A stretch of 36,906 bases of DNA. It comes from a virus (lineage: Duplodnaviria > Caudoviricetes). Where the stretch lies: the IMG/VR virus record IMGVR_UViG_3300030376_006779, positions 1 through 36,906 of that record. One strand, written 5' to 3'. Of the stretch, positions 22,013 through 36,906 are shown piece after piece. Under the pieces are notes generated by a model. The model saw nothing but the letters and a program-made list of their open reading frames with translations, did not search any database and was not told the DNA's origin. Within the stretch, counting starts at the first letter, position 1, and each line of letters begins with the position of its first letter. Both the position numbers and the translations under genes were made by a program.

Positions 22013-22828
22013 ATGAACTATACGCATAGCAAAACACCTAACGCCTTCAAGCAAGGCCGCATCAATAATCGTAAAAAGGGATCAACCCTCGAAGTGGTCA
22101 AGCGTCAGCTTGGAGACAACTTCGGACTTTTCTCTGTACCGCTCGGCAAAGGATACGACTCCTCAACGGGAGTTATTTCCAAAACTAACAGAGCGGCTTC
22201 CATAGCTTCTGCTGTTAGCGGCGGCGGCGGAGGCGGGTCTAGTAGCAGTAATACTTTACAGTTCCAACTTTCTTTCGCTGCAGACTACGATGCTACGAAC
22301 GACACTGGTTGGGCTGGAAGCTCTGAAGCGGGGATTACATTTTCTTATGATGCCAACACGTACGGAAGTACAGGACCGCATACCTACTCCGCAACGGGCG
22401 TAGCAAATTCGTCCGACAAATTCGTAGTTGCATGGACGGATCTAGACACGGACGCAATGGGTACGGAATGGTGCGGCTGGACGCTTTATGTAGAGGATAG
22501 CGGGAGTCTGAATCGATTAGGTTATGACGGGGGCGGGGGATATGAGATGGCTTACGTGATCGCTGGCATAGATACTAGTAGTGACTTTAGCGGGAACCCT
22601 TGGGACCAAACACAGTCTTACGGCACTCCTTTTGATCTTGATGCAGCAACCTTACCTGACGGCGACCCTTATACTTATTGGGAGACCGCATACGACGGAA
22701 ACGGAAACACCTCTGGCTCTGGAAACGGTTATCCGGTATATTTTGATTACGCCAGCACCTGGGGTAGCGACGGCAGCAACTTCGATTACTCAGCCTTTCA
22801 GAGCAGTCGTTCGGGATCTGCGGGGTAA
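22013..22828 (+). CDS. Hypothetical virion protein: basic N-terminal module, Gly/Ser linker, acidic aromatic-rich C-terminal domain
   Basis: 271-aa ORF starting 2 nt after the portal stop. SGGGGGGSSSS linker; the C-terminal ~190 aa are rich in Y/W/D/G/T, consistent with a surface-displayed beta domain. Confidence 0.55.
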   Translation: MNYTHSKTPNAFKQGRINNRKKGSTLEVVKRQLGDNFGLFSVPLGKGYDSSTGVISKTNRAASIASAVSGGGGGGSSSSNTLQFQLSFAADYDATNDTGWAGSSEAGITFSYDANTYGSTGPHTYSATGVANSSDKFVVAWTDLDTDAMGTEWCGWTLYVEDSGSLNRLGYDGGGGYEMAYVIAGIDTSSDFSGNPWDQTQSYGTPFDLDAATLPDGDPYTYWETAYDGNGNTSGSGNGYPVYFDYASTWGSDGSNFDYSAFQSSRSGSAG

Positions 22829-22835
22829 CATTTAA

Positions 22836-23126
22836 ATGACCGACATAGTCGTTTTCGACCAGCTCGCTGACATCAAGCGACTTACAGTAGATGAAGCTTT
22901 TATCCATCTTGAAAAACGTTTTCAAAAGGAAAGAGCCAGATACCTCTCTAAGCTCCTTGACCCAGCCACCTCCCCGGAGGAAACTTTGCAGATCAAGGCA
23001 GTCATTAACGCGCTTGAAAGTTTATCGCCGATGGCTCTCGCGGAAAAGACGCTTAAAATTGAAGTAAAGAACCGTAAAGTTGAACACCCCGAGCTGTTCA
23101 AGGTAAAACGAAACGCAACCGGTTGA
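22836..23126 (+). CDS. Small helical hypothetical protein (96 aa)
   Basis: Charged amphipathic ORF in operon context. Resembles in size and position the small proteins commonly found downstream of portals. Confidence 0.6.
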   Translation: MTDIVVFDQLADIKRLTVDEAFIHLEKRFQKERARYLSKLLDPATSPEETLQIKAVINALESLSPMALAEKTLKIEVKNRKVEHPELFKVKRNATG

Positions 23127-23157: not shown

Positions 23158-23442
23158 ATGGCTACTGTAAACTTATCATGGACAACTCCCTCGTCTGTTT
23201 CGGATGTGGATAACATAGAAGTCTGGCGTTGGGCTGGGCTTTCAGCTACCACTACCTCCGATCTTGAGACGCTCATAACCGCTGCGGCTACAACCCCTCT
23301 GGCTACGCTGTCGGACTCTACCGTTACCTATTCGGACACGACTGCTCCCGCAGCTTCTGACTTAACGTACGCAGCTGTTTCCAGAAATACCGCAGGCTAT
23401 AAGCTTGAGGGTACTGGGCATGCGAACGTGACCACTACATAA
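23158..23442 (+). CDS. Stand-alone fibronectin type III-like domain protein lacking the first (A) beta-strand (94 aa)
   Basis: TVNLSWTTP (strand B with conserved W), NIEVWR (C), VTYSDTT (E), LTYAAVSRNTAG (F), ANVTTT (G). The protein begins directly at strand B. Confidence 0.72.
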   Translation: MATVNLSWTTPSSVSDVDNIEVWRWAGLSATTTSDLETLITAAATTPLATLSDSTVTYSDTTAPAASDLTYAAVSRNTAGYKLEGTGHANVTTT

Positions 23443-23443
23443 A

Positions 23444-23797
23444 ATGCCTCGATGGGGGGACATTGCTGACACCACAGAACACGTTGACCTACATCCAGGC
23501 AGCGTGGATTTGGTTGGTCGGCCTTCACCCCACACTTTAAGCGGGCGCCCTTCACCGTACGACAGACCTTTTGGGGGTATAGAACCCAGATATCGGTGGA
23601 GTGATGACGCCGACGGCACACACAGGGGGGCTGCCCAACCTCCCGCAGCAGTAGGTTTCAACATCGACATTCGAGTCCTTGAAGCAACGATCTTGGCGAG
23701 AACTGGAGACCCGACAGGGACAATAGCTTTCGCAACGGATACCCATGACTTGTACGTCTATGACGGGGCGGCTTGGCAAATTTACAACGACACTTAA
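23444..23797 (+). CDS. Putative fibre adaptor protein (117 aa)
   Basis: C-terminal GTIAFATDTHDLYVYDGAAW motif, of the kind found in phage fibre shafts and junctions. Confidence 0.55.
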   Translation: MPRWGDIADTTEHVDLHPGSVDLVGRPSPHTLSGRPSPYDRPFGGIEPRYRWSDDADGTHRGAAQPPAAVGFNIDIRVLEATILARTGDPTGTIAFATDTHDLYVYDGAAWQIYNDT

Positions 23798-23803
23798 AGC
23801 ACT

Positions 23804-24778
23804 ATGACAAGCACACTAGAAACTTGCGCAGACGCATCAGCTCGTCCTGCATCCCCATCCGCTGGTGACACCGTTTACCAAGAGGATACAAAACAAATCA
23901 TCGTCTGGGACGGTTCAGCGTGGAGACTCTACGATGCGGCAGGGGGTGAACTAGCGTATCCTTCGGGACTTTATACGGCTGGAACACCTTATGTCATCAC
24001 CACTCAGCCCGATATGCACTACGATGCGAGTCGCATTAACGGAGTTGATTCGTCAGGCAACCCTGCCTTTGGTGTGGCTGTGTCAAGTTGGGAGGACAGG
24101 TCGGGGAACAGTAGGGACGCTGACCAAGCGACTGCGGCTGACCAAGGCTCTTTCATTCAAATAGGAGGACACGCTGGAATCCGTATGCCTTCTTCTACTT
24201 CCCTCGGATTTTACGACACGAACCACGCATTCGCAGCAGGTTCTGATGGTATGACCGTTATCGTTGCCGTAACGACACCCAACGCCAACTACTACACCAA
24301 CATTGTTGGCGCTACAAAGACAGGGGAGACCGTGCCTGGGTTGTACAAAGACGCAGGAATAAATATATCAGGCACTAAAATAGCACGTATCGCCCATTTA
24401 GGTGGTAACTACTACGCATCGAGCTACACTACGCTTTCATGTCAAGGACCACGCATTATCGCTGTATTGGACGGGGATGGTGACCAAAAACTTTTCGAAG
24501 GGAATCAAGTTGGCTATTCTGGTACAACCGCCCGATCCCAAGCGACCATTGATAACGCACTGGCAGGTGATTGGTTTTTAGGAGAGGGGTACCAACATTT
24601 CGGGGGTACGAATACTAATACTGGTGGTGGTATATATCACGAAGTTTTAATCTTTCGAGGACTCTTAGGATACACGGTTGACGGTAACGGAGACCTTAAC
24701 GGCGGAGAGATGAACACCGTGGTAAACTACTTGGCCAACAAATATGGGATAGACGCTTCGAACCCAATCACATCATAA
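23804..24778 (+). CDS. Putative receptor-binding/fibre protein with concanavalin A/LamG-like lectin domain (324 aa)
   Basis: N-terminal RPASPSAGDTVYQEDTKQIIVWDGSAW fibre motif, then HYDAS...VSSWEDRSGNSRDA...EVLIF...VNYLANKYGI, a pattern typical of phage LamG-like domains. Confidence 0.7.
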   Translation: MTSTLETCADASARPASPSAGDTVYQEDTKQIIVWDGSAWRLYDAAGGELAYPSGLYTAGTPYVITTQPDMHYDASRINGVDSSGNPAFGVAVSSWEDRSGNSRDADQATAADQGSFIQIGGHAGIRMPSSTSLGFYDTNHAFAAGSDGMTVIVAVTTPNANYYTNIVGATKTGETVPGLYKDAGINISGTKIARIAHLGGNYYASSYTTLSCQGPRIIAVLDGDGDQKLFEGNQVGYSGTTARSQATIDNALAGDWFLGEGYQHFGGTNTNTGGGIYHEVLIFRGLLGYTVDGNGDLNGGEMNTVVNYLANKYGIDASNPITS

Positions 24779-25032
24779 TGAAAGCAAAAATATTTAACAC
24801 TTCAACACAGGGCACATCGTCCATTTCGGACATTCAAACGGCTCTTGGAATACCACAACAAGGTACTGACAAGTACGCTGACGTGATGGAGATTATCAAC
24901 CCCGAAAGTTCTTACGTCGGGAAGTTCACTTTCCCAATAATGGCTGAAGGAAAATGGAAATGTGACAATCTTTTCGAGTCTTCCGAATTAGTGGATTGGG
25001 ACGATTCATGGTTTGAGACTGAAATAAGCTAA
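24778..25032 (+). CDS. Small acidic hypothetical protein, possible fibre assembly partner (84 aa)
   Basis: TAATG overlap with the lectin-domain gene; acidic, Trp-containing C-terminus (DWDDSWFETEIS). Confidence 0.55.
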   Translation: MKAKIFNTSTQGTSSISDIQTALGIPQQGTDKYADVMEIINPESSYVGKFTFPIMAEGKWKCDNLFESSELVDWDDSWFETEIS

Positions 25033-25067
25033 CATATGCAATACGAAACGGTTGAAAGTCTGACCTA

Positions 25068-25283
25068 ATGGAAACTTACATCTTTCTAGGCCTTAGCGTA
25101 GCCGTTTCCGTACTCGGTTTCTTTCTGAAGAGGTTGAAGGAAGAAATTGATGTATTGAAAGCTAAAAATACAAAGCTCGAGGTATCTACGGCGAGGGAGT
25201 TTGAAAAGGTAAGAAATCTGGAAAAGATATCCGAAGACCGGAGAGAAGACATCAAATCACTTTTTTCAAAGTTAGACAAATGA
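25068..25283 (+). CDS. Single-TM plus coiled-coil protein (71 aa), possible lysis accessory
   Basis: YIFLGLSVAVSVLGFFL followed by a heptad-like charged helix. Confidence 0.6.
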   Translation: METYIFLGLSVAVSVLGFFLKRLKEEIDVLKAKNTKLEVSTAREFEKVRNLEKISEDRREDIKSLFSKLDK

Positions 25284-25606
25284 CTGTTAAATTAGACGAA
25301 AGCACACAGGTAAAAGCCAATGCGATGTTCATGCTGAAAACCATTGGTTTTGTCGGGAGTGCGGTATGGTTGGTGGCTGAGTTTAAAGCAGACGTGCAAA
25401 CCCTGCATACTGATGTGATTCGATTGAATCAACAGGTCGAATTGAACAGTGAATTTAGGATAAAATGGCCTCGTGGCGAGATTGGAGCATTACCTGCTGA
25501 TGCGCAACAAGATATGAAAATACAGCATCTTGAGGGAAGGGTTGATAAACTTGATGGGCACGTTGACAATTTAAGATATCAAGGGACTGACAAGCCAAAG
25601 GACTGA
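25280..25606 (+). CDS. Membrane-anchored coiled-coil protein (108 aa)
   Basis: Hydrophobic AMFMLKTIGFVGSAVWLVA followed by two coiled-coil-like segments. ATGA and TGATG overlaps with its neighbours. Confidence 0.55.
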   Translation: MTVKLDESTQVKANAMFMLKTIGFVGSAVWLVAEFKADVQTLHTDVIRLNQQVELNSEFRIKWPRGEIGALPADAQQDMKIQHLEGRVDKLDGHVDNLRYQGTDKPKD

Positions 25607-26070
25607 TGTTCGAGATATTGACAATGTTTTTAACGGGAGGGGGTTCGGCGGCGCTGGGCTCGATTCTCAAAGGAGTGTTTGGCACGATTGCGGACAATCG
25701 CCAGCAAAAGTTTGAACTAGAACTAGCAAGGGAGTGTAGAGGAAATGAATTCGCGCTTAAATTTCAAGAACAGATGTCTAACGGCGAGGGCGGGAAGTTT
25801 ACTCGCGCTACTCGTCGCCTGCTCGCTGTTATTCTCATGTCTACACTCTCAGCGGTCGTCATCCTCTGCACGCTCTTCCCATCAGCCGAAATCATCACCC
25901 TCTCAAACCCAAACGGAGACGGACAAACCTCCTTCCTTTTTGGACTCGTCACTTATCCGTCGCAGCAAACCCCTGTGGCGCTCACCACAGGGCACCTCGC
26001 TACGTATTTCGTTGTAATCTTGGCACCAATGGTTGTCGGGTTTTACTACACGCCTGGAGGGCGGAAATGA
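25606..26070 (+). CDS. Holin-like membrane protein (154 aa)
   Basis: Three hydrophobic segments (N-terminus; LLAVILMSTLSAVVILCTLF; LATYFVVILAPMVVGFYY), an RATRR basic patch and a short basic C-terminus. Layout is like 3TM holins. Confidence 0.6.
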   Translation: MFEILTMFLTGGGSAALGSILKGVFGTIADNRQQKFELELARECRGNEFALKFQEQMSNGEGGKFTRATRRLLAVILMSTLSAVVILCTLFPSAEIITLSNPNGDGQTSFLFGLVTYPSQQTPVALTTGHLATYFVVILAPMVVGFYYTPGGRK

Positions 26071-26225
26071 GTGATACGACACCGATAGTGGGGATGGCCG
26101 GAACTAGCCTTTCTCTTTCCTTGGGTCAGTGGAATGAACTTTTAGGTATATTGGCAGGTGCTCTGACCTGCGTGTACATGATTTGGAAACTCGTAAGATA
26201 TTATAAGGATGGAAAACCTAAATAA
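26067..26225 (+). CDS. Small holin-like membrane protein (52 aa), absent from the ORF track
   Basis: Hand translation: MSDTTPIVGMAGTSLSLSLGQWNELLGILAGALTCVYMIWKLVRYYKDGKPK*. ATGA overlap with the upstream gene; fills the gap to the next gene. Confidence 0.7.
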   Translation: MSDTTPIVGMAGTSLSLSLGQWNELLGILAGALTCVYMIWKLVRYYKDGKPK

Positions 26226-26415
26226 AAAAGAGGGTAAAGCGCCTTCAGACAAAGTGAAAGGTGCTAAAAAAAAGGCGTGCCGTGGAGATTGCCCTTCACC
26301 TACTCTCTGTAAAGATGTTTTTCAAGGCGACTGCGCTCTCGAGATAATGTCACAACAGGAAGCCGAAAAAGGCGAAAAACCGGGCACAAAAGGGTACGCT
26401 TCCAAAGGCAAATAG
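26209..26415 (+). CDS. Small Lys-rich protein with four cysteines (68 aa)
   Basis: CRGDCPSPTLCKDVFQGDC (C-x3-C-x5-C-x7-C); operon context. Confidence 0.55.
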   Translation: MENLNKKEGKAPSDKVKGAKKKACRGDCPSPTLCKDVFQGDCALEIMSQQEAEKGEKPGTKGYASKGK

Positions 26416-26421
26416 TGTTTT

Positions 26422-26464
26422 GCAACCGGTTACTTTTTAGTGACCAAAGAGTTATGTTCCGATT
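26422..26464 (+). promoter_or_regulatory. Putative activator-dependent late promoter, copy 2 (scaffold-capsid operon)
   Basis: GCAACCGGTT (26422-26431), 21 nt, TATGTT (26453-26458), 6 nt, ATG at 26465; intergenic. Confidence 0.7.
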
Positions 26465-27460
26465 ATGGAACAAGAACATGCGGAGGTTGAATCCCCGCAA
26501 AACGAAGAGCTGAGCCTTGCAGATGCATCATCCGATGATATCCGTAATGCTCTTGGAATAACGTCAGAGCCCGTAGCTGAGGAGCAGGCTATCGAAGAAC
26601 CGCAAGCCGAGGAGCAAATCCCGGGAACGGAGGTCGAAAGTCAGCAGCCGGAAGAGGAAGCGCAACTCGGAAAACGTAGGATTCGTCCTCGTAACGAGTT
26701 AGACCAGCAGGTCATCGATCTTTATAGATCCGAAGGTTTTGCAGGTTCTTTTGCCGATGCTTCGAGAGTCATCTACGGTCAGGACGTCCAAACCGCTCCT
26801 CAAAACTTTCAACAGCCACAGGAAGTCGAGGCGAACGAGCCCGACCCTCTCCAAGGCATTGATACGCGAGCTGAAGAGATTGCGACAGCTATTACTGAGC
26901 TTGAAGGTAAAGTAGAACAAGCAGCCGACGACTTGGAAACGACCGAAGCGCTGAAATATCAGCGTGAGATCATGAAAAAGGAGCTCGAGCTGCAAAATCT
27001 AACTAGCCGTAAAGAGCGCATGCAAGAGGCTTACGAGCAGCAAGAGTATCAAAACCACCAATCAAAAGCGGTGGAGAGCAGGGATAAGGTCTACGAAAAG
27101 TATCCCGTTTTGCAGGACAAGAATTCAATTCATAGAAAGCAATTCGACGATTTCATTAACCAGGCTCAATCCCATCCCGACTATGAAGCGGTTTTTCAGT
27201 CACCTCGGTGGCCTGAACTTCTAGCTAATGAGTATGCAGCTTCGCAGCCAGCTTCGCAGCAACAGCCGGCAACGGCCATTCCGCAACAGCAGGCTCCGCA
27301 GATGGGCACTCAAGCTAAAGTTCTGACAACGGGAAATACGCAACAACCTGTAAACGCCTCTGTGTCTAGAGAGGGGTTGGTTCAAGATCTTCCGAATATG
27401 AGCAAAGACGACCTTTACAGTCTGCTGGGCTCACCGGGAGGTAAGCAGCCTCTTCGATAG
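26465..27460 (+). CDS. Capsid scaffolding protein (331 aa)
   Basis: Acidic E/Q-rich N-terminus, long coiled coil, short C-terminal helix (MSKDDLYSLL); lies immediately upstream of the capsid gene. Confidence 0.8.
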   Translation: MEQEHAEVESPQNEELSLADASSDDIRNALGITSEPVAEEQAIEEPQAEEQIPGTEVESQQPEEEAQLGKRRIRPRNELDQQVIDLYRSEGFAGSFADASRVIYGQDVQTAPQNFQQPQEVEANEPDPLQGIDTRAEEIATAITELEGKVEQAADDLETTEALKYQREIMKKELELQNLTSRKERMQEAYEQQEYQNHQSKAVESRDKVYEKYPVLQDKNSIHRKQFDDFINQAQSHPDYEAVFQSPRWPELLANEYAASQPASQQQPATAIPQQQAPQMGTQAKVLTTGNTQQPVNASVSREGLVQDLPNMSKDDLYSLLGSPGGKQPLR

Positions 27461-27502
27461 ATATAGGGGATCAACCTATACTATACTAAATTCTAATTAA
27501 CA

Positions 27503-29011
27503 ATGGCTACTAAATCACAAGCGGGTGGCTTTCCGGCTTCTCCCGGACCACTCGATTCTACCGCAGCAGGCAACGCTAACGTTGACCTGATCAAACCACG
27601 CATATCTTCTTATGCCGATCTTCTTAACGGAGACGCTAATTCCGACTTGCGCTCAAGACTTTGGTCTGAGCTCGTCACTCGTGACGCTCGGGAAAAAAAC
27701 GTGTTCGCAAAGTTCATCGGAGGCGAAGGTAGCGGCAAACCTATTACCGAAAAGCGCGATCTCAGCGCCGGCGGTTCCGACAAAGTAACCTTCACCACAG
27801 TCGCTCCCATCCGTGGGCAAGGCGTACGTGGGGAAGAGGTTCTGAAGAACAGCACCGACAACCTCGACTTCGGGACATTCTCCGTTGAAGTTGACCTCGT
27901 TCGTCACGCTGTTTCCTGGACGCAAGTCCTTAAGCTCATGCGCTTCACCGGCAAGACCATCGATCAGCTCTCAGCTGAGGTCATGTCCGAATGGATGGGT
28001 CGCACAGAGCAGGACCAGCTTCAGTACGCACTTCGTCAGATCTGCTTGAAGAACGCTACCGGAAGCAACTACATCAGCGGCTACGGTACTGACTCAACTG
28101 GAGCACTTAAGTATGTTGACGGTCTCAGCACCGACATCATCCAAGAGGCTAAGCAAGCACTGATCGCCAACGGCGGTGAGCCAATCAACACTGGCGGAGA
28201 CGTCAATCAGGACATCCCTGGTTACCTGTTCTTCGCTCCTGATGCTGTTCTTCGTCCTCTGCGTTCCGACCCTGACTACCTCGAGGCTATCCTCCAGGCT
28301 GACAGTCGTTCCGACAGTAACAAGCTCTACACTGGTTCGTATGCCAAGTGGGATAACAATGTAATCGCTAACCACAACGTTCTCATCGACACAGCTCGTG
28401 GGCGCCAAGGTTCTCCATTGTTGCCTACGTTCTACGCATTCGACGCAATTGCTGACGCTGCAAGTTCTGGAATCGGCGGAACCGACGGTGACTACGTTGC
28501 CAACTTCCGCGGTGCATTCATCAACATCCCAGGTGGTGGTGGTGTTGCAATGGGTCAAAACGACGACGGAACCTACTACATCCTCGGTATCGACACCAAC
28601 GGTGAGGTTGCTCTCTACAGCTACGCTCAATCCGACATCGCAAATAGCTTCGGAACCATCGCACTTACTCGTGTGTCTGGTGACGGAGGATTGACCGGAA
28701 ACGTCAAAACCGGAGACGCCTTCTCGGCCGGTGCTATGTTCGTTCAAGCCAACGCTTTGGGTACGCCAATCGGCTACGCTCTTGCAATGGGTAAGGACGC
28801 AATGTACTTCGCCAAGGGTAAAATCTACGGTGAAAGCATCTACCACTATGACGATTTCGCGAACTCCGGCAACGAAGCTCACTTGAGCGCTGTTGGTGTT
28901 CAGTCCGTCTACGGAATGGGTGCTCGTCACGACACCAGAGGCCGCGTTCCTGCGGTTCAGTTGGTCGAGTGCGTTCGCCAAGTTCCAGGATTGTCGCTTA
29001 CGCAAGCGTAA
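27503..29011 (+). CDS. Major capsid protein, DUF4043/N4-like HK97 fold (502 aa)
   Basis: GSDKVTFTTVAPIRGQGVRGEEVLKNSTDNLDFGTFSVEVDLVRHAV resembles the DUF4043 capsid E-loop. Strongly biased C/T-ending codons; follows the scaffold and precedes a terminator. Confidence 0.88.
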   Translation: MATKSQAGGFPASPGPLDSTAAGNANVDLIKPRISSYADLLNGDANSDLRSRLWSELVTRDAREKNVFAKFIGGEGSGKPITEKRDLSAGGSDKVTFTTVAPIRGQGVRGEEVLKNSTDNLDFGTFSVEVDLVRHAVSWTQVLKLMRFTGKTIDQLSAEVMSEWMGRTEQDQLQYALRQICLKNATGSNYISGYGTDSTGALKYVDGLSTDIIQEAKQALIANGGEPINTGGDVNQDIPGYLFFAPDAVLRPLRSDPDYLEAILQADSRSDSNKLYTGSYAKWDNNVIANHNVLIDTARGRQGSPLLPTFYAFDAIADAASSGIGGTDGDYVANFRGAFINIPGGGGVAMGQNDDGTYYILGIDTNGEVALYSYAQSDIANSFGTIALTRVSGDGGLTGNVKTGDAFSAGAMFVQANALGTPIGYALAMGKDAMYFAKGKIYGESIYHYDDFANSGNEAHLSAVGVQSVYGMGARHDTRGRVPAVQLVECVRQVPGLSLTQA

Positions 29012-29044
29012 TGGTACGGAATTTTCCCGCCCACTAATCCACTC

Positions 29045-29085
29045 GAGACCCCGCCTGGCACTATCCTGGGCGGGGTCTCTTTTTT
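29045..29085 (+). terminator. Rho-independent terminator after the capsid gene
   Basis: Perfect 11-bp stem GAGACCCCGCC (29045-29055) / GGCGGGGTCTC (29069-29079) followed by TTTTTT. Confidence 0.9.
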
Positions 29086-29088
29086 ATC

Positions 29089-29400
29089 ATGAAAATCATC
29101 ATACTCGGAAAGAAAAACATGGCAGGGACTAATCCCTCCATTCGCATTAAAGGACTATCTCAAGTAAGGTATAACTTCCTCTGGGATCCGGAAATCAGGT
29201 ATTTTGCCTATGAGCCGAAGGACCAGAAGGAGTGCGACGATATCTTTCGTACCCAAGGCAGGGTCTATCGGACGATGTTCTTCTCCGCATGGATGGAGCC
29301 CGAGGCTGAAGAGGTAGAGGAAAAACCGAAGGCAAAGGCCAAAAGTCGAAAGACGAAAGCCAAGTCTCAACCGGTGGAAGAACCGGTAGTGAGTGAGTAA
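29089..29400 (+). CDS. Hypothetical protein (103 aa) with acidic then Lys-rich tail
   Basis: ORF between the capsid terminator and the adaptor gene; EPEAEEVEEKPKAKAKSRKTK tail. Confidence 0.65.
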   Translation: MKIIILGKKNMAGTNPSIRIKGLSQVRYNFLWDPEIRYFAYEPKDQKECDDIFRTQGRVYRTMFFSAWMEPEAEEVEEKPKAKAKSRKTKAKSQPVEEPVVSE

Positions 29401-29409
29401 TATGGCTTT
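29367..29409 (+). promoter_or_regulatory. Putative activator-dependent late promoter, copy 3 (tail operon)
   Basis: TCAACCGGTG (29367-29376), 21 nt, TAATAT (29398-29403), 6 nt, ATG at 29410. Confidence 0.65.
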
Positions 29410-30162
29410 ATGGCCTCCATTTCTTATCTCTCGCTTAAAAATCAACTGGCCTCGATGTTGGGGGCGGACGAAGTGTCCGATCTTCCTCAAATTGATCAGG
29501 ACAGAGTAGGTATTTTTATCAATCAAGCCTATCGGGAGTGCTACACTCCTCTTGACGGCAAACGACCTATGTGGGCCCAAAAAGGGTTCACGTTGGACTT
29601 CGTAAAAGACCAGGTATCAGCCGATCTATCGGCGGATGTTACATCCGTTGATAAGATCCCGGTGCTTGTCGGCGAAGGCCCACTATCACCTATGTCCGGG
29701 CCCGAAGATGAGATTCGAGCTCGCACCATATTTGCATGGGATTTCAAATCTCCTCAAGGTCGGGGTTTGAACTTCCCGAAATATAAAGAGAATGAGCCGG
29801 AGAAAGGGCGCCCAGTTTGGTACTATTTGGATAATCGAAATTCCGGGACTGATAACAAGGTCATCCCTAGACTGTTTCTTTACCCAATACCTGAAAAAGC
29901 ATACCAGGTTGAGTTGTTCGCTAACATAGTCCCCACCGATCTGGAGTTGGATACCGACGAGCCTCGTATGCCTTCTGACTTAGTGTGGGACATACTTTTC
30001 CCAATTGCTCAAGGTAAGATGCTTTCCGACCCCCGCTACAACGGGGATAATAAAGAGTTCATCGCCCGTATGGCTGAGGAAGCCCGTAAAAGGCTTAGAA
30101 CTCTAGTATCACCGCAGAAGCACAAAGGTTCTCTAAGACTCACAAAACGCGGAGGCTGGTAA
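29410..30162 (+). CDS. Head-tail adaptor / tail tubular protein A-like (250 aa)
   Basis: FINQAYRE...GRPVWYY...LFLYPIPEKAYQVEL...LELDTDEPRMP pattern typical of podovirus adaptor proteins; position after the capsid. Confidence 0.78.
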   Translation: MASISYLSLKNQLASMLGADEVSDLPQIDQDRVGIFINQAYRECYTPLDGKRPMWAQKGFTLDFVKDQVSADLSADVTSVDKIPVLVGEGPLSPMSGPEDEIRARTIFAWDFKSPQGRGLNFPKYKENEPEKGRPVWYYLDNRNSGTDNKVIPRLFLYPIPEKAYQVELFANIVPTDLELDTDEPRMPSDLVWDILFPIAQGKMLSDPRYNGDNKEFIARMAEEARKRLRTLVSPQKHKGSLRLTKRGGW

Positions 30163-31607
30163 TGCCTAAAGACCTGACAATTCGCCTTCTCGGACGACCT
30201 ACAGTCACGGAAGACAGTGTACTGGGCTTCCATAAGCTGGCACGCAAGTACGTAGTCCAAGGGCCGAGAGCCTGCAAGGCCGGAATAGTCGATGCGACCA
30301 ACCCACTTTTCCTTGATGTCGGAACCGCCGACGAGGAGTTTACCGACCACTACCTAGTTAACCAGCGACTTGAGACTGCGCAGGGCTCTATGGAGAAGGC
30401 GTACCTGACTCGAGAATTCGCAGACATTAGGGATACTTGGAGCTCCGAATCCATAAGCGAGAGTGGCGACCTTAAGAGGATGTCACGCCGATATGCGGTT
30501 TTGCGCGCTGAGCACGCTCGAGGTTATGACGCCACTTCCTGGGCGGCTCACCCTCACAACTCCAGTGTTAATGAGAATGATCCCTGGGATTATTTACCGA
30601 AAGTAATCAAGGATACTGAACCTGTATCAGTTAGCTACGAGGACAACTCGCCGACAACAAATCTTTTCGCGAATGCCGCCAACACACCTTCTGGTATTCT
30701 AACACCGAAAGTCAGTGTGGGTGGAACGCCTGTGTCTCTGGCAACGATTCTCGCTAGCATATCGTCCACCGACAGCTTGTCCCTGAGATGGCTCAGGGCA
30801 ACGGCAACCGTCGATAGCTCCAACCCTGGAGTTGACATATGGCAGGTCTCGTGGGCTGCCCCCGTAACCGACCACTGGACTTCTCGTGCAGGCGGGGGAG
30901 GGCGTTCAGGTAGCAGCTACCCGAACCTCGTGGAGTTTGATCACAATGGCATAAAAAACCATAAGTTCGGAGCAGTGAGCGGAGGATCCGGGATATCCGT
31001 AATGAGGAGCTATGTATCTTACGTCGTGGGTGAAACAGCGGGCGACGCTTGGGCTAGCTACTTCTCAATGGGCAGTCTCAAGCCAAGCGTGAGTATGGAC
31101 TTTTTCATGGAGTATCTTGATGGCGGAGGGACGGGATTCAAGCAGAGTATGCCTAATTCGGTATATATGTACGATGCTAGTGCACATATAGTCTTCCCCA
31201 CCAACCCTGACACCGACAACCCCACTGCCTCCGGGAGTAATGTTGACGGAATACGGGTGTCGAAAGCCGTCCCTATGGGTTACATATTCAGGTATCGTGA
31301 AGACCAGACCATAACGGTCGATGTAAGTTTCGACCCCGCGAATTCGGTGACCACAGTTACCGAGCATAGGTATGATGCGGAGGGGGACGACGTATACGAG
31401 GAACAAACCTCGTCCACTCCCGGCATAAACCATCCGTACTATCAGACCAAGGCCATTACCCGGGCGGGAGGGAAGGTAAACTGGTCTCACGCCATAGATC
31501 GCTCGACTATCGATCAATATAGTCAGAACTCAGGTTCGTCAGTATCACCCATATTTTCGCACGGTAAGGATAGGATCTGGAAGGTTGTGCTAACCTTTGT
31601 CAGCTAA
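30162..31607 (+). CDS. Hypothetical tail-region virion protein (481 aa)
   Basis: S/T/V-rich, probably beta-rich ORF coupled by TAATG overlaps on both sides; no family recognised. Confidence 0.55.
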   Translation: MPKDLTIRLLGRPTVTEDSVLGFHKLARKYVVQGPRACKAGIVDATNPLFLDVGTADEEFTDHYLVNQRLETAQGSMEKAYLTREFADIRDTWSSESISESGDLKRMSRRYAVLRAEHARGYDATSWAAHPHNSSVNENDPWDYLPKVIKDTEPVSVSYEDNSPTTNLFANAANTPSGILTPKVSVGGTPVSLATILASISSTDSLSLRWLRATATVDSSNPGVDIWQVSWAAPVTDHWTSRAGGGGRSGSSYPNLVEFDHNGIKNHKFGAVSGGSGISVMRSYVSYVVGETAGDAWASYFSMGSLKPSVSMDFFMEYLDGGGTGFKQSMPNSVYMYDASAHIVFPTNPDTDNPTASGSNVDGIRVSKAVPMGYIFRYREDQTITVDVSFDPANSVTTVTEHRYDAEGDDVYEEQTSSTPGINHPYYQTKAITRAGGKVNWSHAIDRSTIDQYSQNSGSSVSPIFSHGKDRIWKVVLTFVS

Positions 31608-32584
31608 TGGACGAGGAGGAGGAGTTAGAGGAGCTTGAAGATAAGCTCGATGAGCTGAAGCGGAAGGTTGAGGAAATCGAGTCTCAAGTCACGACCAATA
31701 CCGAGGCTACCGAAGAGAGGCCCTACCAGCAAATCGTTTCTTCTGACAGACCCTTCGTTCTACATTGGGTATCCGGGCAATTTGGAGGAGTGGACTCCGT
31801 AGCAAAGGCAAAATGGGCTTTTGCGAATGCGATTAAGGATAAGAAGAATTCAAGCAAACCCGTACAGCACGGAGATATGATGATCCTTGATACGGACTGT
31901 CCTTGGTACGGGCTGCTTGTCGAGCAAGGGGAGATTTACCAATCGGTTGGATACGAGGGCGAAGACCCTATAGGCATAGTAGTTTGGAACGGATGCTCCG
32001 AGCTTACCGATTGCGCATGCGACGACACTATAGAGGAGTTAATATCCGGAGGGATTGACGAGAGCAGTCCAGACACATCCTGGAAAGTGTCCCTGGGCAC
32101 TTGCGTATGGTTCAACCAACTCATGAGCGTGTCGATATACTCGCACACTTCAGCTGGAACGGTTCTTTTGACAAAGACCCGAGCATTCACGCTAAACAAA
32201 TGCGGGGCGGTAGTAGATGTCGGTAGGGAAGTCGAGGACTCCCTTCTCATACCATGCGAATGTGGGGAGGATCCTCCCACAGGTAATTACGATGATTGCT
32301 CGGAGTTCGCAACAATGCCGAACTCCATAACCTTAGAGGAGACGGATAGTCAGGGCACTGTTACGACCACGACTCTATACAAATACACGATATCGTCGAC
32401 TTTCTGCCGGTTTACCACGGATAGCACTGGCGGATCAGCTGGGGGTGGAGTCAATGATTACTCCGTACGATTTCTCTCCGGATTATGGAAGGTCTATAAA
32501 ACGGGAACTGCATACGCAACCCACCACTTATTTTTTGGGAACTATACAACCATAAACGGAACTAGTACGTGGAAAGTGTTATGA
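31607..32584 (+). CDS. Putative tail fibre/spike-like protein with N-terminal coiled coil and Cys-rich middle (325 aa)
   Basis: LEELEDKLDELKRKVEEIESQV coiled coil; several Cys pairs (DCACDD, PCECG); T/G/Y-rich C-terminal domain. Confidence 0.5.
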   Translation: MDEEEELEELEDKLDELKRKVEEIESQVTTNTEATEERPYQQIVSSDRPFVLHWVSGQFGGVDSVAKAKWAFANAIKDKKNSSKPVQHGDMMILDTDCPWYGLLVEQGEIYQSVGYEGEDPIGIVVWNGCSELTDCACDDTIEELISGGIDESSPDTSWKVSLGTCVWFNQLMSVSIYSHTSAGTVLLTKTRAFTLNKCGAVVDVGREVEDSLLIPCECGEDPPTGNYDDCSEFATMPNSITLEETDSQGTVTTTTLYKYTISSTFCRFTTDSTGGSAGGGVNDYSVRFLSGLWKVYKTGTAYATHHLFFGNYTTINGTSTWKVL

Positions 32585-32739
32585 CCGACGAAAAGAAAGA
32601 ACCCTCAAAAGGCCTGGGCGATACGGTCAAGAAGATCACGGACAAGCTAAAAATACCCCAATGCGGAGCCTGTAAGAAAAGACAGGCAAAACTCAATCGG
32701 TTGTTTCCTTACGAACCTAAGGATAATAATAAGAAGTGA
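32581..32739 (+). CDS. Small basic CxxC protein (52 aa), absent from the ORF track
   Basis: Hand translation: MTDEKKEPSKGLGDTVKKITDKLKIPQCGACKKRQAKLNRLFPYEPKDNNKK*. ATGA and GTGA overlaps on both sides. Confidence 0.8.
   Translation: MTDEKKEPSKGLGDTVKKITDKLKIPQCGACKKRQAKLNRLFPYEPKDNNKK
32693..32735 (+). promoter_or_regulatory. Possible degenerate fourth copy of the late promoter
   Basis: TCAATCGGTT (8/10 match) lies exactly 43 nt before the GTG at 32736, with TAATAA at the -10 position. It is inside a coding region, so it may be coincidental. Confidence 0.35.
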
Positions 32740-34892
32740 GATTTTTTCGCATACCGGCCTTTACGGGCATAGAAACCCACCGGGACGATATGGATCGGGG
32801 GAGCTTGCGCACGGTCGAAGGTTGTGTACCGCACGGCCCGGGAGGATTAAGATCCGGACCGGTCTGGTCTAAGATTGGGGATGTCAGCCAGTTCTCCGCG
32901 ATTGCTGAAAATCATGTGTCGGCCGCAGATGACGGCAAAGGGAATTCGCTCTTTTTCGTTAGTCGAGAGTCGGAAGTCCATGACCTGCTTGTAACGTCCA
33001 CGGAGAACACCGCTCTTGTATCACTTGGTGCAAGCTACGGTGTGATAAATAACTCTGTTTTCGACCAAGGGGACGCATCGTTAACCCCAGTAGGTAATCG
33101 CTTGTACGCCTTAGGCGATGGGAGTGAGGAGGCAGTTGTCACGATTGGCGAAGGCCCTCCGCACATCACCCACAGTGTGACTCCAGATCAGACTCTTTAC
33201 AGTCAGGAGTGGTCAAGGTTTCCGAACTGTCAATTTTATGTCGCCGGACCAAAGAAAACTATCTTTGCAGCAGGTAATCCTGCCGACCCGCTAGTCGTTT
33301 ATATTTCCGAACCCGCTGGTGTTACACAGCCCGTGCGAGACAATCCATACTCAACCTACGAAACGGGACACTACGAAGGTGTGTTGAGCGAGGTTCGAAT
33401 CTTGGGGAGTAACGCCTCAAAAATTACTGCTTTGAGCACCCGGCAGGACCGGGTAGTCGTTCACACCGATAAAGGATGCCATATTCTATATGCCCCATCT
33501 CCCGATCAGGCTAGTACGGGATACCGTACAGAACAGGTGTCGGCCACGAACACCTCGGCCGCAGTTAACTCTCAAACCGTTGCAGGAGACGGGGGGACGC
33601 AACCTTTTTGGTTGGGTCACGACGGACAAATTTATAAGGACGAGGCAGCTGTGCGCGGAGCCGAAGACTTTAAATCGTATGCCGATCCTCAACAGGCAAG
33701 TTGGAAAGCGAAGGGCAAATGGGAGAAGGAACACCCCGCTAATCTGGAGAATTCATTCGCTACATATGATCCCCAATCTGGAATGTATTGGGTATTTGTA
33801 GAAAGCTCGGAGAGTCCCGTAAATACGAGAAAGCCCACGGAGGGTCCGACCAGCCTTTCCGGAATTGTCAAGCCCGTCAACGGCCCAACAGGTTTGGGAG
33901 CGATTACCGCGCCTACTGATGGACCAACAGGGCTGGTAACTCAGGAGATTGTTACACCTACCAGTGGACCAACAGGGCTGGTAACTCAGGAGATTGTTGC
34001 ACCTACCAGTGGGCCGACAGGGTTGTCGGCAACTCAGTATATTGTTGCACCTGCTAATGGGCCGACAGGGTTGTCAGCAACTCAGCAGGTCGTTGCACCA
34101 ACCAGCGGACCTACAGGGTTATCGGCAACTCAGCAAGCATCCGCACCTGCTAGCGGACCTACGGTACTAACCGCGACCGCCATGCCGTTTCCGCATTTGC
34201 ACTATCTTATCCCGGGAACGCCGAGTTACGCTGGGGACAAGATGTACGCTACTGGGCTGACGTACAACCCGACTCTAAGCACTTATCATATCAATAATTT
34301 CGGGTACCAGAGCTTTACTAACGTAGCTACCCCGACGCAAACATCCGAACTAGCAGCAACAGCAAACACGGGGAGTACGTGTAATGTTGAGATGAGCATG
34401 TATTTCCCAGGAGGTGGGTTGAGGCACTTCCTTCGTAGCAATTCAACGTGCAGTTTTTATCAGCATTGGATCGAGATGACATACGCTGGTCTTCTGGATC
34501 TGGATGTGTTTATCGCTACTACTGCTACGGGAGCGACAGGTAACTGGAATGCGGGTTTTGGATCCCCAGCTTGGCATTACCAAGAAGTTGATGCCTCTAC
34601 AGGCGGAGTGTGGGATGTGTGGGTGGCCGCTGGAAACACAACTGGGGTATACAACGTTGTCAAGAGACTCGGTTCGAACTCAGCCCCGTTCTTCTGGACG
34701 ATGGCAAACGCTAGTGCCGGGTCGCCAATGGGCATACCTTCCGTAGGTGCCCCCGCATACTTGCCCAACCCATTAGGCAGTGGTCAACGCTTAGAGATGT
34801 TCATCAGTTCTGGTGCTGGTACTCACAACTATGCAACTAGTGAAAACAGGTACTTTGACCACAATAACACTACCCACCTTCTTCCAGTATGA
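32736..34892 (+). CDS. Putative tail nozzle (tubular protein B-like) N-terminal part, repeat array and C-terminal accessory domain (718 aa)
   Basis: Nozzle-like start (AFTGIET...GGLRSGP) and beta-propeller-like strands (VVYISEP, KITALSTRQDRVVVHT, PFWLGHDGQIY, FATYDPQSGMYWVFV). Then 8 PxxGPT repeats and a T/G/Y/W-rich domain. Confidence 0.65.
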   Translation: MRFFRIPAFTGIETHRDDMDRGSLRTVEGCVPHGPGGLRSGPVWSKIGDVSQFSAIAENHVSAADDGKGNSLFFVSRESEVHDLLVTSTENTALVSLGASYGVINNSVFDQGDASLTPVGNRLYALGDGSEEAVVTIGEGPPHITHSVTPDQTLYSQEWSRFPNCQFYVAGPKKTIFAAGNPADPLVVYISEPAGVTQPVRDNPYSTYETGHYEGVLSEVRILGSNASKITALSTRQDRVVVHTDKGCHILYAPSPDQASTGYRTEQVSATNTSAAVNSQTVAGDGGTQPFWLGHDGQIYKDEAAVRGAEDFKSYADPQQASWKAKGKWEKEHPANLENSFATYDPQSGMYWVFVESSESPVNTRKPTEGPTSLSGIVKPVNGPTGLGAITAPTDGPTGLVTQEIVTPTSGPTGLVTQEIVAPTSGPTGLSATQYIVAPANGPTGLSATQQVVAPTSGPTGLSATQQASAPASGPTVLTATAMPFPHLHYLIPGTPSYAGDKMYATGLTYNPTLSTYHINNFGYQSFTNVATPTQTSELAATANTGSTCNVEMSMYFPGGGLRHFLRSNSTCSFYQHWIEMTYAGLLDLDVFIATTATGATGNWNAGFGSPAWHYQEVDASTGGVWDVWVAAGNTTGVYNVVKRLGSNSAPFFWTMANASAGSPMGIPSVGAPAYLPNPLGSGQRLEMFISSGAGTHNYATSENRYFDHNNTTHLLPV
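33834..34181 (+). repeat. Eight tandem PxxGPTxLxx peptide repeats (13-16 aa unit)
   Basis: PTEGPTSLSG, PVNGPTGLGA, PTDGPTGLVT, PTSGPTGLVT, PTSGPTGLSA, PANGPTGLSA, PTSGPTGLSA, PASGPTVLTA. The 45-nt units at 33920-33964 and 33965-34009 differ by one base. Confidence 0.95.
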
Positions 34893-36906
34893 GCTTTTGC
34901 GAGACGATAAATATTACTAAAACGGATTCCTCAGCGGATATCTGCGAGGGAAACTATACATTCGACGCAGTTGCCAGAGAGTATGTTCATACAACGGATT
35001 CAAATTGCAGACTGAGTAAGTACATAGACTTCGCATCAGGTGAGTATAAATGGCGGGCATACCATTGGGTTCCTTCCGATCAGCCACAACCAGCGGGGAG
35101 CACGCTAAGCGCGCAATTTACAATGCCTCCCACAATAGTTTGTGCTACTACAAAATATCACCAAACGGCGGTTACCGAAGTGCCTAGTGATATCCTAACT
35201 GATCATAATGCTCATTTCTTACAAGAGGACGGAGATCTAAACGGATGCCCCGAGATGAGTACGTTCCCAGGCAGACCGAATATGTCCATGTCAGGAATGT
35301 CTAATGACGTGAGCGGTTTGTGGGAAAGTGGGAAAGGCGTATTCGCCGACCACGACCCCCTTGATGGGACGAGTTATGTCGAGGATGCAAGGCAAGTAGG
35401 CGTGCCTAGAGATAGGTGGGTATTAAATGGTGTAAATTGCGATGATCCATTTCGGGGAGATCCTGCCCCACAGGACGCAGATGTTACTAGATGGATCGCG
35501 AAGTACAATACGAGAACTTCTAAATACTGGGGTGACGAGCCGTCTGGTAGTACGACACCTGCATGGAGTATCGAACATGAGTGGACAAGGGATCAGAGCG
35601 GTAACGTCACAGGACAAACTTGGAATAAATCCGCTAACTTTAGTAACGATGTTGGCAGAGTGGATCAGTGCTTGATCAACGTCTATGTTATCGATCCTAC
35701 GCAAGGTATAGTGAACGACTCGGGGGCTACCAGTGGTGGTAAGATAATACCTTACCGAGAAGCTACGATAAACGACGGGACGTTTGGGCAGTCACAATAT
35801 GCAGGGTGGGTAGGCGGTATTCTGTGGCAATGGAATGAGACTACTCAAAGGATGGAAATAGAGGAAAGACCCTCTACTGCTCAAAACTACCCGATCTTCA
35901 GAGCAGGTGCTGGTGCCAACAATGACGAGCACGACATTTTAATATTAAACTCGAACGGGCAGAAAACAGCTATCTCAGATAACATCTGCTTTCTACATCA
36001 GAACTATTACGGAGCGAATGTTAATTATGATGATTATATCGCATATAACAACGCTACCTGGTCAGGTGTAGGTAGTGCAGCAGCTAGAACAGGTTTTGAG
36101 AAACATTGGTTGGGTGCAACGTTTTCATTCTTTGAGGATGCTGACTCCCTGACTCCTGAGTATATGGAGATCAAAATGATCACCCAGGACTCAGACTACG
36201 TAGACTGGATAAGTAATGGGAGCCAAGGTGCCTGTGCAAGCATGGGCTGGTACAGATCTGTAGGGATTGAAACAACTTCAGATATATCAGAAATGTGCCC
36301 AACTGATGCGGATTGGACGCAGACGGGAATAAGTGTAGCGGAAGCTTCCGAACCGTCCGTTGGACCAACCGCTCTTAATGCAACGACTCAGCCCGCTTCA
36401 GGACCGACAAATCTCAGTGCCGCGCAAGACGGGTCGGGGTCGGGCGGAGGATCTGGCGGAGGATCTGGCGGAGGATCTGGCGGAGGCGGAGGTACCGTAG
36501 CCCCAGCAGTAGGACCTACCGCTCTTACAGCGACGCAAGCACCTACAACTTTTACAGGAAACACGCTATCCTCAAAGTATCTCGGTTATGTAATCGACGA
36601 GCGCACAAGCTCGCTGTCCGGCCCATTCGATCATGAGTCAATCACAGCGGTTGCAACCCGGGACAATTCCGCAGAGATGTATGCTGTGACCGAGGACAAG
36701 AGTGTCAAGAAGACCGACCTGTTAGATTTTAACGAAGCAGTATTTCCAAAAGTCTCCGATCCATTCGGGAGCATCACCGTCCCATTTGACACGACTACTG
36801 AAAAAGGTGTTGTCTGCTCGAAGACCGGTGAGGGGTTTCTATACCGTGGACGTTATATGTCCGCGCCATTTGAGGAACCTGTTGACGGGCCGGGTACGGT
36901 CGAAGA
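34889..36906 (+). CDS. 3'-truncated tail protein (>672 aa), absent from the ORF track: Cys/Trp-rich N-terminal domain, repeats, probable C-terminal part of the nozzle
   Basis: ATGA overlap with the previous gene. Hand translation (MSFCETINITKTDSSADICEG...) shows no stop up to the window end. KYLGYVIDERTSSLSGPF...ITAVATRDNSAEMYAVT begins at 36575. Confidence 0.8.
   Translation, partial: MSFCETINITKTDSSADICEGNYTFDAVAREYVHTTDSNCRLSKYIDFASGEYKWRAYHWVPSDQPQPAGSTLSAQFTMPPTIVCATTKYHQTAVTEVPSDILTDHNAHFLQEDGDLNGCPEMSTFPGRPNMSMSGMSNDVSGLWESGKGVFADHDPLDGTSYVEDARQVGVPRDRWVLNGVNCDDPFRGDPAPQDADVTRWIAKYNTRTSKYWGDEPSGSTTPAWSIEHEWTRDQSGNVTGQTWNKSANFSNDVGRVDQCLINVYVIDPTQGIVNDSGATSGGKIIPYREATINDGTFGQSQYAGWVGGILWQWNETTQRMEIEERPSTAQNYPIFRAGAGANNDEHDILILNSNGQKTAISDNICFLHQNYYGANVNYDDYIAYNNATWSGVGSAAARTGFEKHWLGATFSFFEDADSLTPEYMEIKMITQDSDYVDWISNGSQGACASMGWYRSVGIETTSDISEMCPTDADWTQTGISVAEASEPSVGPTALNATTQPASGPTNLSAAQDGSGSGGGSGGGSGGGSGGGGGTVAPAVGPTALTATQAPTTFTGNTLSSKYLGYVIDERTSSLSGPFDHESITAVATRDNSAEMYAVTEDKSVKKTDLLDFNEAVFPKVSDPFGSITVPFDTTTEKGVVCSKTGEGFLYRGRYMSAPFEEPVDGPGTVE
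36353..36541 (+). repeat. Three PxxGPTxLxA repeats and a (GGGS)3 linker
   Basis: PSVGPTALNA, PASGPTNLSA and PAVGPTALTA; GGCGGAGGATCT repeated three times at 36443-36478. Confidence 0.92.

What the first reader, a model, noticed from the sequence alone, without database searches (positions are those of the whole stretch)
23158..36541. Candidate split-FN3 donor-strand system: tail proteins carry arrays of the beta-strand that a separate small protein lacks
Seen: the 94-aa gene (23158-23442) reads as an FN3 domain that starts at strand B (MATVNLSWTTP). Two tail genes carry 8 (33834-34181) and 3 (36353-36541) repeats of PxxGPTxLx(A/T/G), with no FN3 body after them. Established: bacterial FN3 domains usually begin with a PxAPTxLxA A-strand, followed shortly by VTLSW. 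Donor-strand complementation builds chaperone-usher pili from Ig-like folds. Inference: each repeat supplies strand A in trans to one copy of the small protein. This would turn a flexible peptide into a beads-on-a-string fibre holding the appended domain away from the tail, with length set by repeat number. The small gene sits behind a perfect copy of the promoter-like element that precedes the scaffold-capsid operon, as expected if many copies are needed. I know of no description of this in phages.
Basis: partly seen in the sequence, partly recalled or inferred. Interest (0 to 1): 0.92.

Follow-up and report, generated by a model that had tools for sequence, protein, structure and literature searches.

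The report
Split FN3 rope-and-bead phage fibre
An uncultured marine phage encodes a small fibronectin-type (FN3) domain that lacks its first strand, and its likely tail-nozzle genes carry eleven loose copies of that strand, so the small protein likely threads onto them like beads on a rope; relatives pair different strand types with different bead genes, a new version of the rope-and-bead fibres seen in phages A1002 and Bas63.

Summary
Observation confirmed. The 94-aa gene is an FN3 domain of strands B-G only (AF2 model; aligns to solved FN3s from residue 15-19). The 8+3 PxxGPTxL repeats are the 11 best matches in the window to strand A of 352 intact FN3 domains. The two 'tail genes' are the halves of one split, probably nozzle, protein. 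In relatives the strandless gene often sits inside the split: 26 of 26 loci with several non-GP repeats carry it there, 0 of 8 with GP-only arrays do, and those covering the head region have a distinct portal-side bead like the window's. All 11 near-complete relatives have both bead and array (one bead weak). Complex prediction gave weak support only (0.39 vs control 0.02), and a natural cis-fusion was not modelled with the strand in place. Binding is unmeasured. This scan also noted split FN3s in other genomes. Verdict: new variant of a known kind; the apparent strand code is the new part.

The parts
23158..23442 (+). Bead: FN3 domain lacking strand A (strands B, C, C', E, F, G plus a helix in the C-C' loop); portal-side, GP-associated group
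23116..23124 (+). Promoter-like CAACCGGTT, 42 nt before the bead start codon (overlaps the last codons of the upstream 96-aa gene)
32736..34892 (+). N-half of split, probably nozzle, protein: conserved core aa 1-359, rope of 8 repeats, variable C-terminal domain
33834..34181 (+). Array of 8 A-strand-like repeats PxxGPTxLx(A/S/T/G), period 13-16 aa
34889..36906 (+). C-half of the split protein (runs off the contig): variable N-terminal domain, 3 repeats around a Gly/Ser linker, then the conserved C-core
36353..36541 (+). Three A-strand-like repeats (36353, 36392, 36503)
32694..32702 (+). Promoter-like CAATCGGTT, 42 nt before the nozzle N-half start (inside a small upstream ORF)
26423..26431 (+). 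Promoter-like CAACCGGTT, 42 nt before the scaffold gene (reference copy)

Best explanation
The 94-aa protein is an FN3 domain without strand A, and each repeat in the two halves of the likely tail nozzle is predicted to insert as that missing strand, so copies of the small protein would thread onto the repeat arrays as beads on a rope. Shown: the missing strand, the A-strand identity of the repeats, the split of one ancestral gene with the arrays at the cut ends, and family-wide linkage of bead genes to arrays. Inferred: that the split protein is the hexameric nozzle; that binding is 1:1 per repeat (up to 11 beads per N/C pair, about 66 per virion if hexameric); that the beaded rope stiffens and holds the variable terminal domains (likely host-recognition modules) away from the tail, with reach set by repeat number; and that repeat class selects the bead (PxxGP repeats use the portal-side bead, PxxP/PGxV repeats use a bead encoded inside the nozzle locus).
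For: Fold: six strands, mean pLDDT 84; model residue 1 aligns to residue 15-19 of solved single FN3s (2h45_A Z 9.3, rmsd 1.5, 70 aligned, chain 19-95; 3teu_A 15-91); 8 of 8 small relatives match Pfam fn3 from profile position 15-16 of 84. Start register: of 70 distinct family members 65 have the strand-B aromatic at residue 8-10, one at 14, and 4 missed by the pattern show it at 7-8 in the printed rows. Repeats: a 7-position profile from 352 A-strands of intact FN3 domains ranks the 11 repeats 1-11 of 11,499 windows; spacing never under 11 residues in 34 GP and 31 non-GP arrays. Linkage: of 55 non-redundant loci with both halves, 26 of 26 with 3 or more non-GP repeats have a bead gene between the halves, 0 of 8 GP-only arrays and 0 of 7 unsplit, repeat-free genes do. 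11 of 11 records at least 79% complete have a bead (G038's weak, E 0.07) and a clustered array. In G001 (99% complete; bead 88% identical) the only GP-type array is in the nozzle gene. Nozzle-locus beads and GP-associated beads separate on a tree, and a second nozzle-region bead beside GP repeats in G006 falls with the GP group. Complex prediction: weak support, score 0.39 against best control 0.02; runs agree in at least 0% of contacts, partner pLDDT at least 56; that mark was reached by 116 of 157 solved and 2 of 215 mismatched pairs, but at 0.60 or under by only 18 solved pairs and by both mismatches. Precedent: ropes completing incomplete sandwiches in Bas63 and a nozzle-rope with 11 dimers in A1002.
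Against: No binding or virion data. The complex score is in the weak band and no interface was given. In the natural cis form L084:2967-3281 (GP motif 17 residues before the strand-B Trp, the canonical distance) AF2 did not model the motif as a strand, and only 2 of 50 structural matches extended over it, one at rmsd 7.5; the alignment had gaps there in nearly all other rows, so the test is weak but it failed. G025 (38% complete, covering portal to nozzle) has a portal-side bead and no array. Four loci have an in-locus bead with under 3 pattern hits (L027, L078, L081, L088). The repeat patterns were drawn after seeing the data, and the in-locus bead changes only about 5 times on the tree (at least 3 forced), so the 26/26 split reflects few independent events. 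In the window the bead gene lies 10 kb from the arrays. Nozzle identity rests on gene order and weak leads.
Confidence: 0.78

Rival explanations
1. The repeats are plain Pro/Thr/Ser-rich spacers left over from FN3 decay, and the strandless protein completes itself (strand-swapped dimer or polymer) or docks elsewhere as a decoration protein.
For: AF2 folds the six-strand monomer confidently without a partner; best Foldseek rows are a strand-swapped engineered FN3 (4m6a, E 0.02); G025 has a bead without an array; the cis test failed.
Against: Does not explain why bead genes sit inside the split nozzle locus only when non-GP arrays are present, why spacers keep the inward Leu and Ala positions of strand A and a minimum period of 11, or the fixed start register. 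Self-pairing was not tested.
Confidence: 0.11
2. Strand donation is real but the window's bead serves a different donor (a head-region protein or a gene outside the contig), and the nozzle arrays here are unoccupied or served by a gene not in the window.
For: Portal-side beads in many relatives sit beside head-region genes with their own GP arrays (G007, G013, G016, G019, G023, G027, G033, G035); the window is a partial genome.
Against: The window's head region has no GP repeat; in 99%-complete G001 the nozzle holds the only GP array and the only free bead is the 88%-identical one; G019 and G027 (100% complete) have one bead gene for GP arrays in both regions.
Confidence: 0.07
3. The repeats self-assemble into a beta-spiral or beta-helix fibre between nozzle subunits and need no partner.
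For: Tandem Pro/Gly-containing repeats of about 14-15 residues are typical of viral beta-spiral shafts (recalled, not tested).
Against: Irregular period (13,13,15,15,16,16,16 in the window), single copies in close relatives (L009, L099), mixed classes in one array (L012 group), and the match to FN3 strand A.
Confidence: 0.04

Closest known systems
Nozzle-rope chain-like fibre of Pseudomonas podophage A1002 (PMC13730344; read abstract and sections 9, 11, 12, 18, plus term searches)
   Same: Nozzle split over two genes; a rope fused to a nozzle half; separately encoded small proteins threaded on it by beta-augmentation; two bead proteins in one phage; bead genes gp40/gp41 numbered between the two nozzle halves gp39/gp42.
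   Different: A1002 beads are 147- and 171-aa homodimers related to GP4 gp80 and VP1 gp11; the main text has no 'fibronectin', 'FN3', 'repeat' or 'donor'. Here the bead is an ~90-aa FN3 lacking exactly strand A, the rope is a tandem array of that strand, ropes occur on both halves and on head-region proteins, and repeat class tracks bead class.
Collar-rope/whisker assemblies of Bas63, Sf14 and GP4 (PMC12609058; read passages found by term search)
   Same: Rope runs through grooves and completes a series of incomplete beta-sandwiches, 'beads on a string'.
   Different: Whiskers are dimers with an N-terminal helix and extra small sheet, on a neck collar; no 'fibronectin', 'FN3' or 'donor' in the main text.
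Donor-strand complementation in chaperone-usher pili, type V pili and TasA (TasA paper PMC9674648 seen as search listing only; the rest recalled)
   Same: An incomplete beta-sandwich is completed by a strand from another chain.
   Different: There each subunit carries one donor strand and polymerises head to tail, with a chaperone or protease; here many donor strands sit on one scaffold chain and the bead carries none.
HCF-1 Fn3nc self-association module (PMC6582346, passage read; PDB 4go6 hit weakly)
   Same: A natural FN3 domain assembled from two chains.
   Different: Eukaryotic, made by proteolysis of one precursor, single copy, half-domain split rather than an array of single strands.

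Membership tests
Fibronectin type III fold | Strands B-C-C'-E-F-G with Trp in B and Tyr in F | tested here: met
   Pfam fn3 in 8 of 8 small relatives; none for the window protein itself
Fibronectin type III fold | Strand A in the same chain | tested here: not met
   alignments start at FN3 residue 15-19; nothing upstream in frame
FN3 strand A (the repeats) | P-x-x-L-x-A core as in intact bacterial FN3 domains | tested here: met
   ranks 1-11 of 11,499; the PxxGP lead-in is absent from 352 intact domains
Rope-and-bead fibres (A1002, GP4, VP1, Bas63, Sf14) | Rope from a tail or neck protein completes incomplete sandwiches of separate small proteins | tested here: inconclusive
   genomic linkage and weak complex support; cis test failed
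Rope-and-bead fibres (A1002, GP4, VP1, Bas63, Sf14) | Bead is a 140-171-aa subunit with N-terminal dimerising helix (GP4 gp80-like) | tested here: not met
   94 aa, begins with strand B, no N-terminal helix in the model against the descriptions
Rope-and-bead fibres (A1002, GP4, VP1, Bas63, Sf14) | Structural homology of the bead to gp80/whisker | tested here: inconclusive
   searches list FN3s only; an unlisted family is not excluded
Rope-and-bead fibres (A1002, GP4, VP1, Bas63, Sf14) | Beads bind as dimers | not tested
Split nozzle (A1002 gp39/gp42 type) | One ancestral nozzle gene divided into complementary halves | tested here: met
   7 non-redundant relatives have both cores in one ORF, 48 have them split
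Podophage nozzle (P22 gp10 / T7 gp12 type) | Beta-propeller nozzle fold | tested here: inconclusive
   no PHROG/Pfam hit; nearest named Atlas cluster PF11134 on 13% of members; weak propeller hits E 0.27 or worse; position after portal, capsid and adaptor-like genes
Chaperone-usher / type V pili | Subunit carries its own donor strand and polymerises; dedicated chaperone, usher or protease | tested here: not met
   bead has no terminal extension; no such gene family in the window

The most novel reading that the evidence does not exclude
This phage family uses a genetically encoded strand code: several orthogonal FN3 strand-A/bead pairs (PxxGP with the portal-side bead, PxxP/PGxV with the nozzle-locus bead, a third motif with a bead fused to a LamG-like domain, and adaptors that are socket and plug at once) let one virion build separate fibres on head and tail, set their length by repeat number and swap tip domains between genomes as plug-ins.
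Probability: 0.5. Interest if true: 0.86.

Novelty: new variant of a known kind. Interest (0 to 1): 0.7.

Why it matters
If true it explains how an abundant uncultured marine phage family turns short Pro/Thr-rich repeats, normally dismissed as linkers, into length-tunable fibres, and shows that rope-and-bead fibres arose again from the commonest Ig-like fold. Strandless FN3 genes and their arrays are invisible to standard annotation. Natural peptide/domain pairs of about 12 and 90 residues with apparent orthogonality are directly testable in vitro and would be a ready set of non-covalent assembly tags.

Tried and rejected
Pfam and PHROGs give nothing for the bead or either tail gene. Foldseek against PDB and BFVD gave no match at E 0.001 or better, only weak FN3 rows; no rope-bead protein of GP4, Bas63 or A1002 was listed. 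No cultured phage matched the nozzle core or a relative's bead and no prokaryote genome matched the nozzle core. No RNA holder listed. The first repeat profile missed V/I-type arrays (G038, G040), so it was replaced by the independent profile. Alignment A5 held a stray row and was not used. The careful nozzle tree did not finish; the quick tree is reported (54 of 55 rows, L061 dropped as too short). The handle search covered 44 of 50 records asked for. Rejected: mis-called start codon or frameshift supplying strand A; assembly artefact at the split; promoter as proof of high copy number (same element before the nozzle in 19 of 25). Literature searches for a split FN3 or donor-strand FN3 in phages listed no such paper; one search returned the rope-fibre papers. 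The library lacks most subscription papers; the GP4, VP1 and Sf14 papers and the figures and supplementary files of the two papers read were not seen and may describe the bead folds in more detail.

Full report
Setting. The window is the structural region of an uncultured tailed phage: SU10-type portal (19995-22010) and N4-like major capsid protein (27503-29011) by Pfam and PHROGs, a 5,845-aa LPD38 protein upstream, and an adaptor-like gene (phrog_10775, E 7e-4). Runs holding the DNA are mostly labelled marine metagenome. No cultured phage or prokaryote genome matched.

The observation. The 94-aa ORF and the 8+3 repeats are at the stated places. The motif PxxGPxxL is absent from 10,283 aa of the other main ORFs. 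There is no upstream in-frame strand A.

The small protein. Sixteen close homologues start at the same Met. AF2 gives six strands and one inserted helix, mean pLDDT 84. VIA-align places model residue 1 at residue 15-19 of solved single FN3 domains (best Z 9.3, rmsd 1.5, 70 aligned). Eight of eight small relatives match Pfam fn3 from profile position 15-16. Of 70 distinct family members, 65 have the strand-B aromatic at residue 8-10; 26 further database proteins start the same way, while the 7 weakest rows of that search are ordinary FN3 fragments. So the loss of strand A is a conserved family trait. Inference: the fixed short N-terminus leaves room for a rope passing where the A-B turn would be.

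The repeats. From 120 intact multi-FN3 proteins I took 396 domains anchored on the strand-B Trp; 352 had an A-strand core, consensus P-S/G-A-P-T-G/N-L-T-A-T. Its 7-position core ranks the window's 11 repeats 1-11 of 11,499 windows; with the four lead-in positions included the ranks spread to 42, because none of the 352 has the PxxGP lead-in. The core was picked with a loose pattern that resembles the repeats, so the test is not fully independent; a profile from one tandem-FN3 protein gave ranks 1-43. Spacing is 13-16 in most of 65 arrays and never under 11, which fits one FN3 length of about 35-40 A per repeat (dimension recalled).

The two tail genes are one split gene. Seven non-redundant relatives encode both conserved cores in one ORF with no repeats; 48 have them split, with arrays and variable domains at the cut. 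The split in the window is bridged without differences in 4 of 4 runs laid. I call it the nozzle from gene order and weak leads only.

Linkage. Among 71 loci with both halves (55 non-redundant), a strandless FN3 gene lies between the halves in 26 of 26 with three or more non-GP repeats and in 4 of the other 29; it is absent from all 8 GP-only arrays, the window included. The patterns were drawn after seeing the data and the trait changes only about 5 times on the nozzle tree, so this is a few independent events, not 55. GP-only genomes that cover the head region (window, G001, G005, G016, G019, G027) carry a portal-side bead; G019 and G027 have a single bead gene for GP arrays on both nozzle and head-region proteins, and in G001 the nozzle holds the only GP array. 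Genomes such as G013, G021 and G035 have both: non-GP nozzle arrays with an in-locus bead, GP arrays near the portal with a portal-side bead. On a short-column tree the 33 nozzle-locus beads stay outside a 27-row group (support 88) that holds all 15 GP-associated beads, including one that sits in the nozzle region of G006 next to four GP repeats. All 11 records at least 79% complete have both a bead and an array (G038's bead at E 0.07). Exceptions: G025 (38% complete) has a bead and no array over portal-to-nozzle; G002, G005, G006, G012 and G014 (24-52% complete) show no cluster by the profile, although G005 has one and G006 four GP repeats by pattern; G034 and G042 have arrays at contig ends and no bead seen.

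Promoter-like element. CAACCGNTT-like sites lie 41-48 nt, mostly exactly 42 nt, before the start of the scaffold gene in 27 of 28 records, the nozzle N-half in 19 of 25, nozzle-locus beads in 11 of 12, and within 70 nt of other free beads in 14 of 22 (9 at 42-45 nt); background 127 of 10,100 random 70-mers. Beads therefore often have their own transcription start (inferred, probably leaderless), in either location. Before the portal-side bead and the nozzle the site overlaps coding sequence.

Predictions. Bead plus a two-repeat peptide: weak support, 0.39 against best control 0.02; contacts agree in at least 0% between runs, partner pLDDT at least 56; the mark was reached by 116 of 157 solved and 2 of 215 mismatched pairs, but at 0.60 or under by only 18 solved pairs and both mismatches; no interface given. 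Against: the natural cis form L084:2967-3281, with a GP motif at the canonical 17 residues before the Trp, was modelled with residues 1-17 outside any strand.

Mechanism. Most likely each repeat inserts as strand A into one bead; the two nozzle halves reassemble, and the N-half rope (8 beads) and C-half rope (3 beads) project their variable domains. Binding, stoichiometry, stiffness and receptor role are inferred.

Comparison. A note from this scan led to two papers. Bas63 whisker dimers sit on a collar rope 'beads on a string', the rope completing incomplete sandwiches (PMC12609058, passages). A1002 has a nozzle split over gp39 and gp42, a rope on gp39 and 11 dimers of two proteins bound by beta-augmentation (PMC13730344, sections 9, 11, 12, 18). 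So it works like those systems. It is not a member by the features tested: the bead is smaller, FN3-derived, has no N-terminal helix, and the rope is a tandem array of one strand. Neither main text mentions FN3 or donor strands. Searches listed no split-FN3 phage paper. The scan has noted split FN3 systems in at least seven other findings, none sharing sequence words with this protein; these are unchecked AI notes and no support.

Verdict. Real feature; new variant of a known kind; mechanism about 0.78 likely; the cognate strand classes are the most novel and most testable part. Interest 0.70.

Noticed in passing
L001:10287-13042; L002:3388-7762; L003:10281-12361: A third pairing: collagen-like fibre genes carry 2-3 motifs like PxDVSxSIxY and are followed by a strandless FN3 fused to a LamG-like domain (label from sequence appearance). 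The window lacks both.
   Followed up: partly
P0029, P0030, P0034; L062:13544-15745: Strandless FN3 followed directly by its own A-strand repeat(s): socket and plug in one chain, a possible adaptor or chain extender.
   Followed up: no
L010:7688-10309; L020:4872-7457; L062:9986-12226: Variable domains in the nozzle insert carry HExxH motifs, suggesting zinc-peptidase domains on the tail.
   Followed up: no
L027:10001-12709; L084:2-2719; L096:1940-4822: Nozzle inserts made of long Cys-rich repeats instead of A-strand arrays.
   Followed up: no
window 32581-32739: Small unlisted ORF with a CxxC motif just before the nozzle gene; similar CGGC proteins lie inside the nozzle locus of L027 and L084.
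   Followed up: no
window 22013-22828 and L001:10287-11786: The C-terminal domain of the window's 271-aa gene recurs almost unchanged inside a relative's collagen fibre gene: module shuffling among head-region fibres.
   Followed up: no
window 23158-23442 (Atlas neighbours): Clusters of 78-83-aa proteins labelled bacterial, one with fn3 on 92% of members, are nearest by features; they may be strandless FN3s outside this phage family.
   Followed up: no
window 2458-19995: 5,845-aa protein with an LPD38 domain, probably an ejected internal virion protein.
   Followed up: no
window 33811-34058: One contig in run X4 joins across part of the repeat array with other letters between, possibly a co-occurring relative with fewer repeats.
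   Followed up: no
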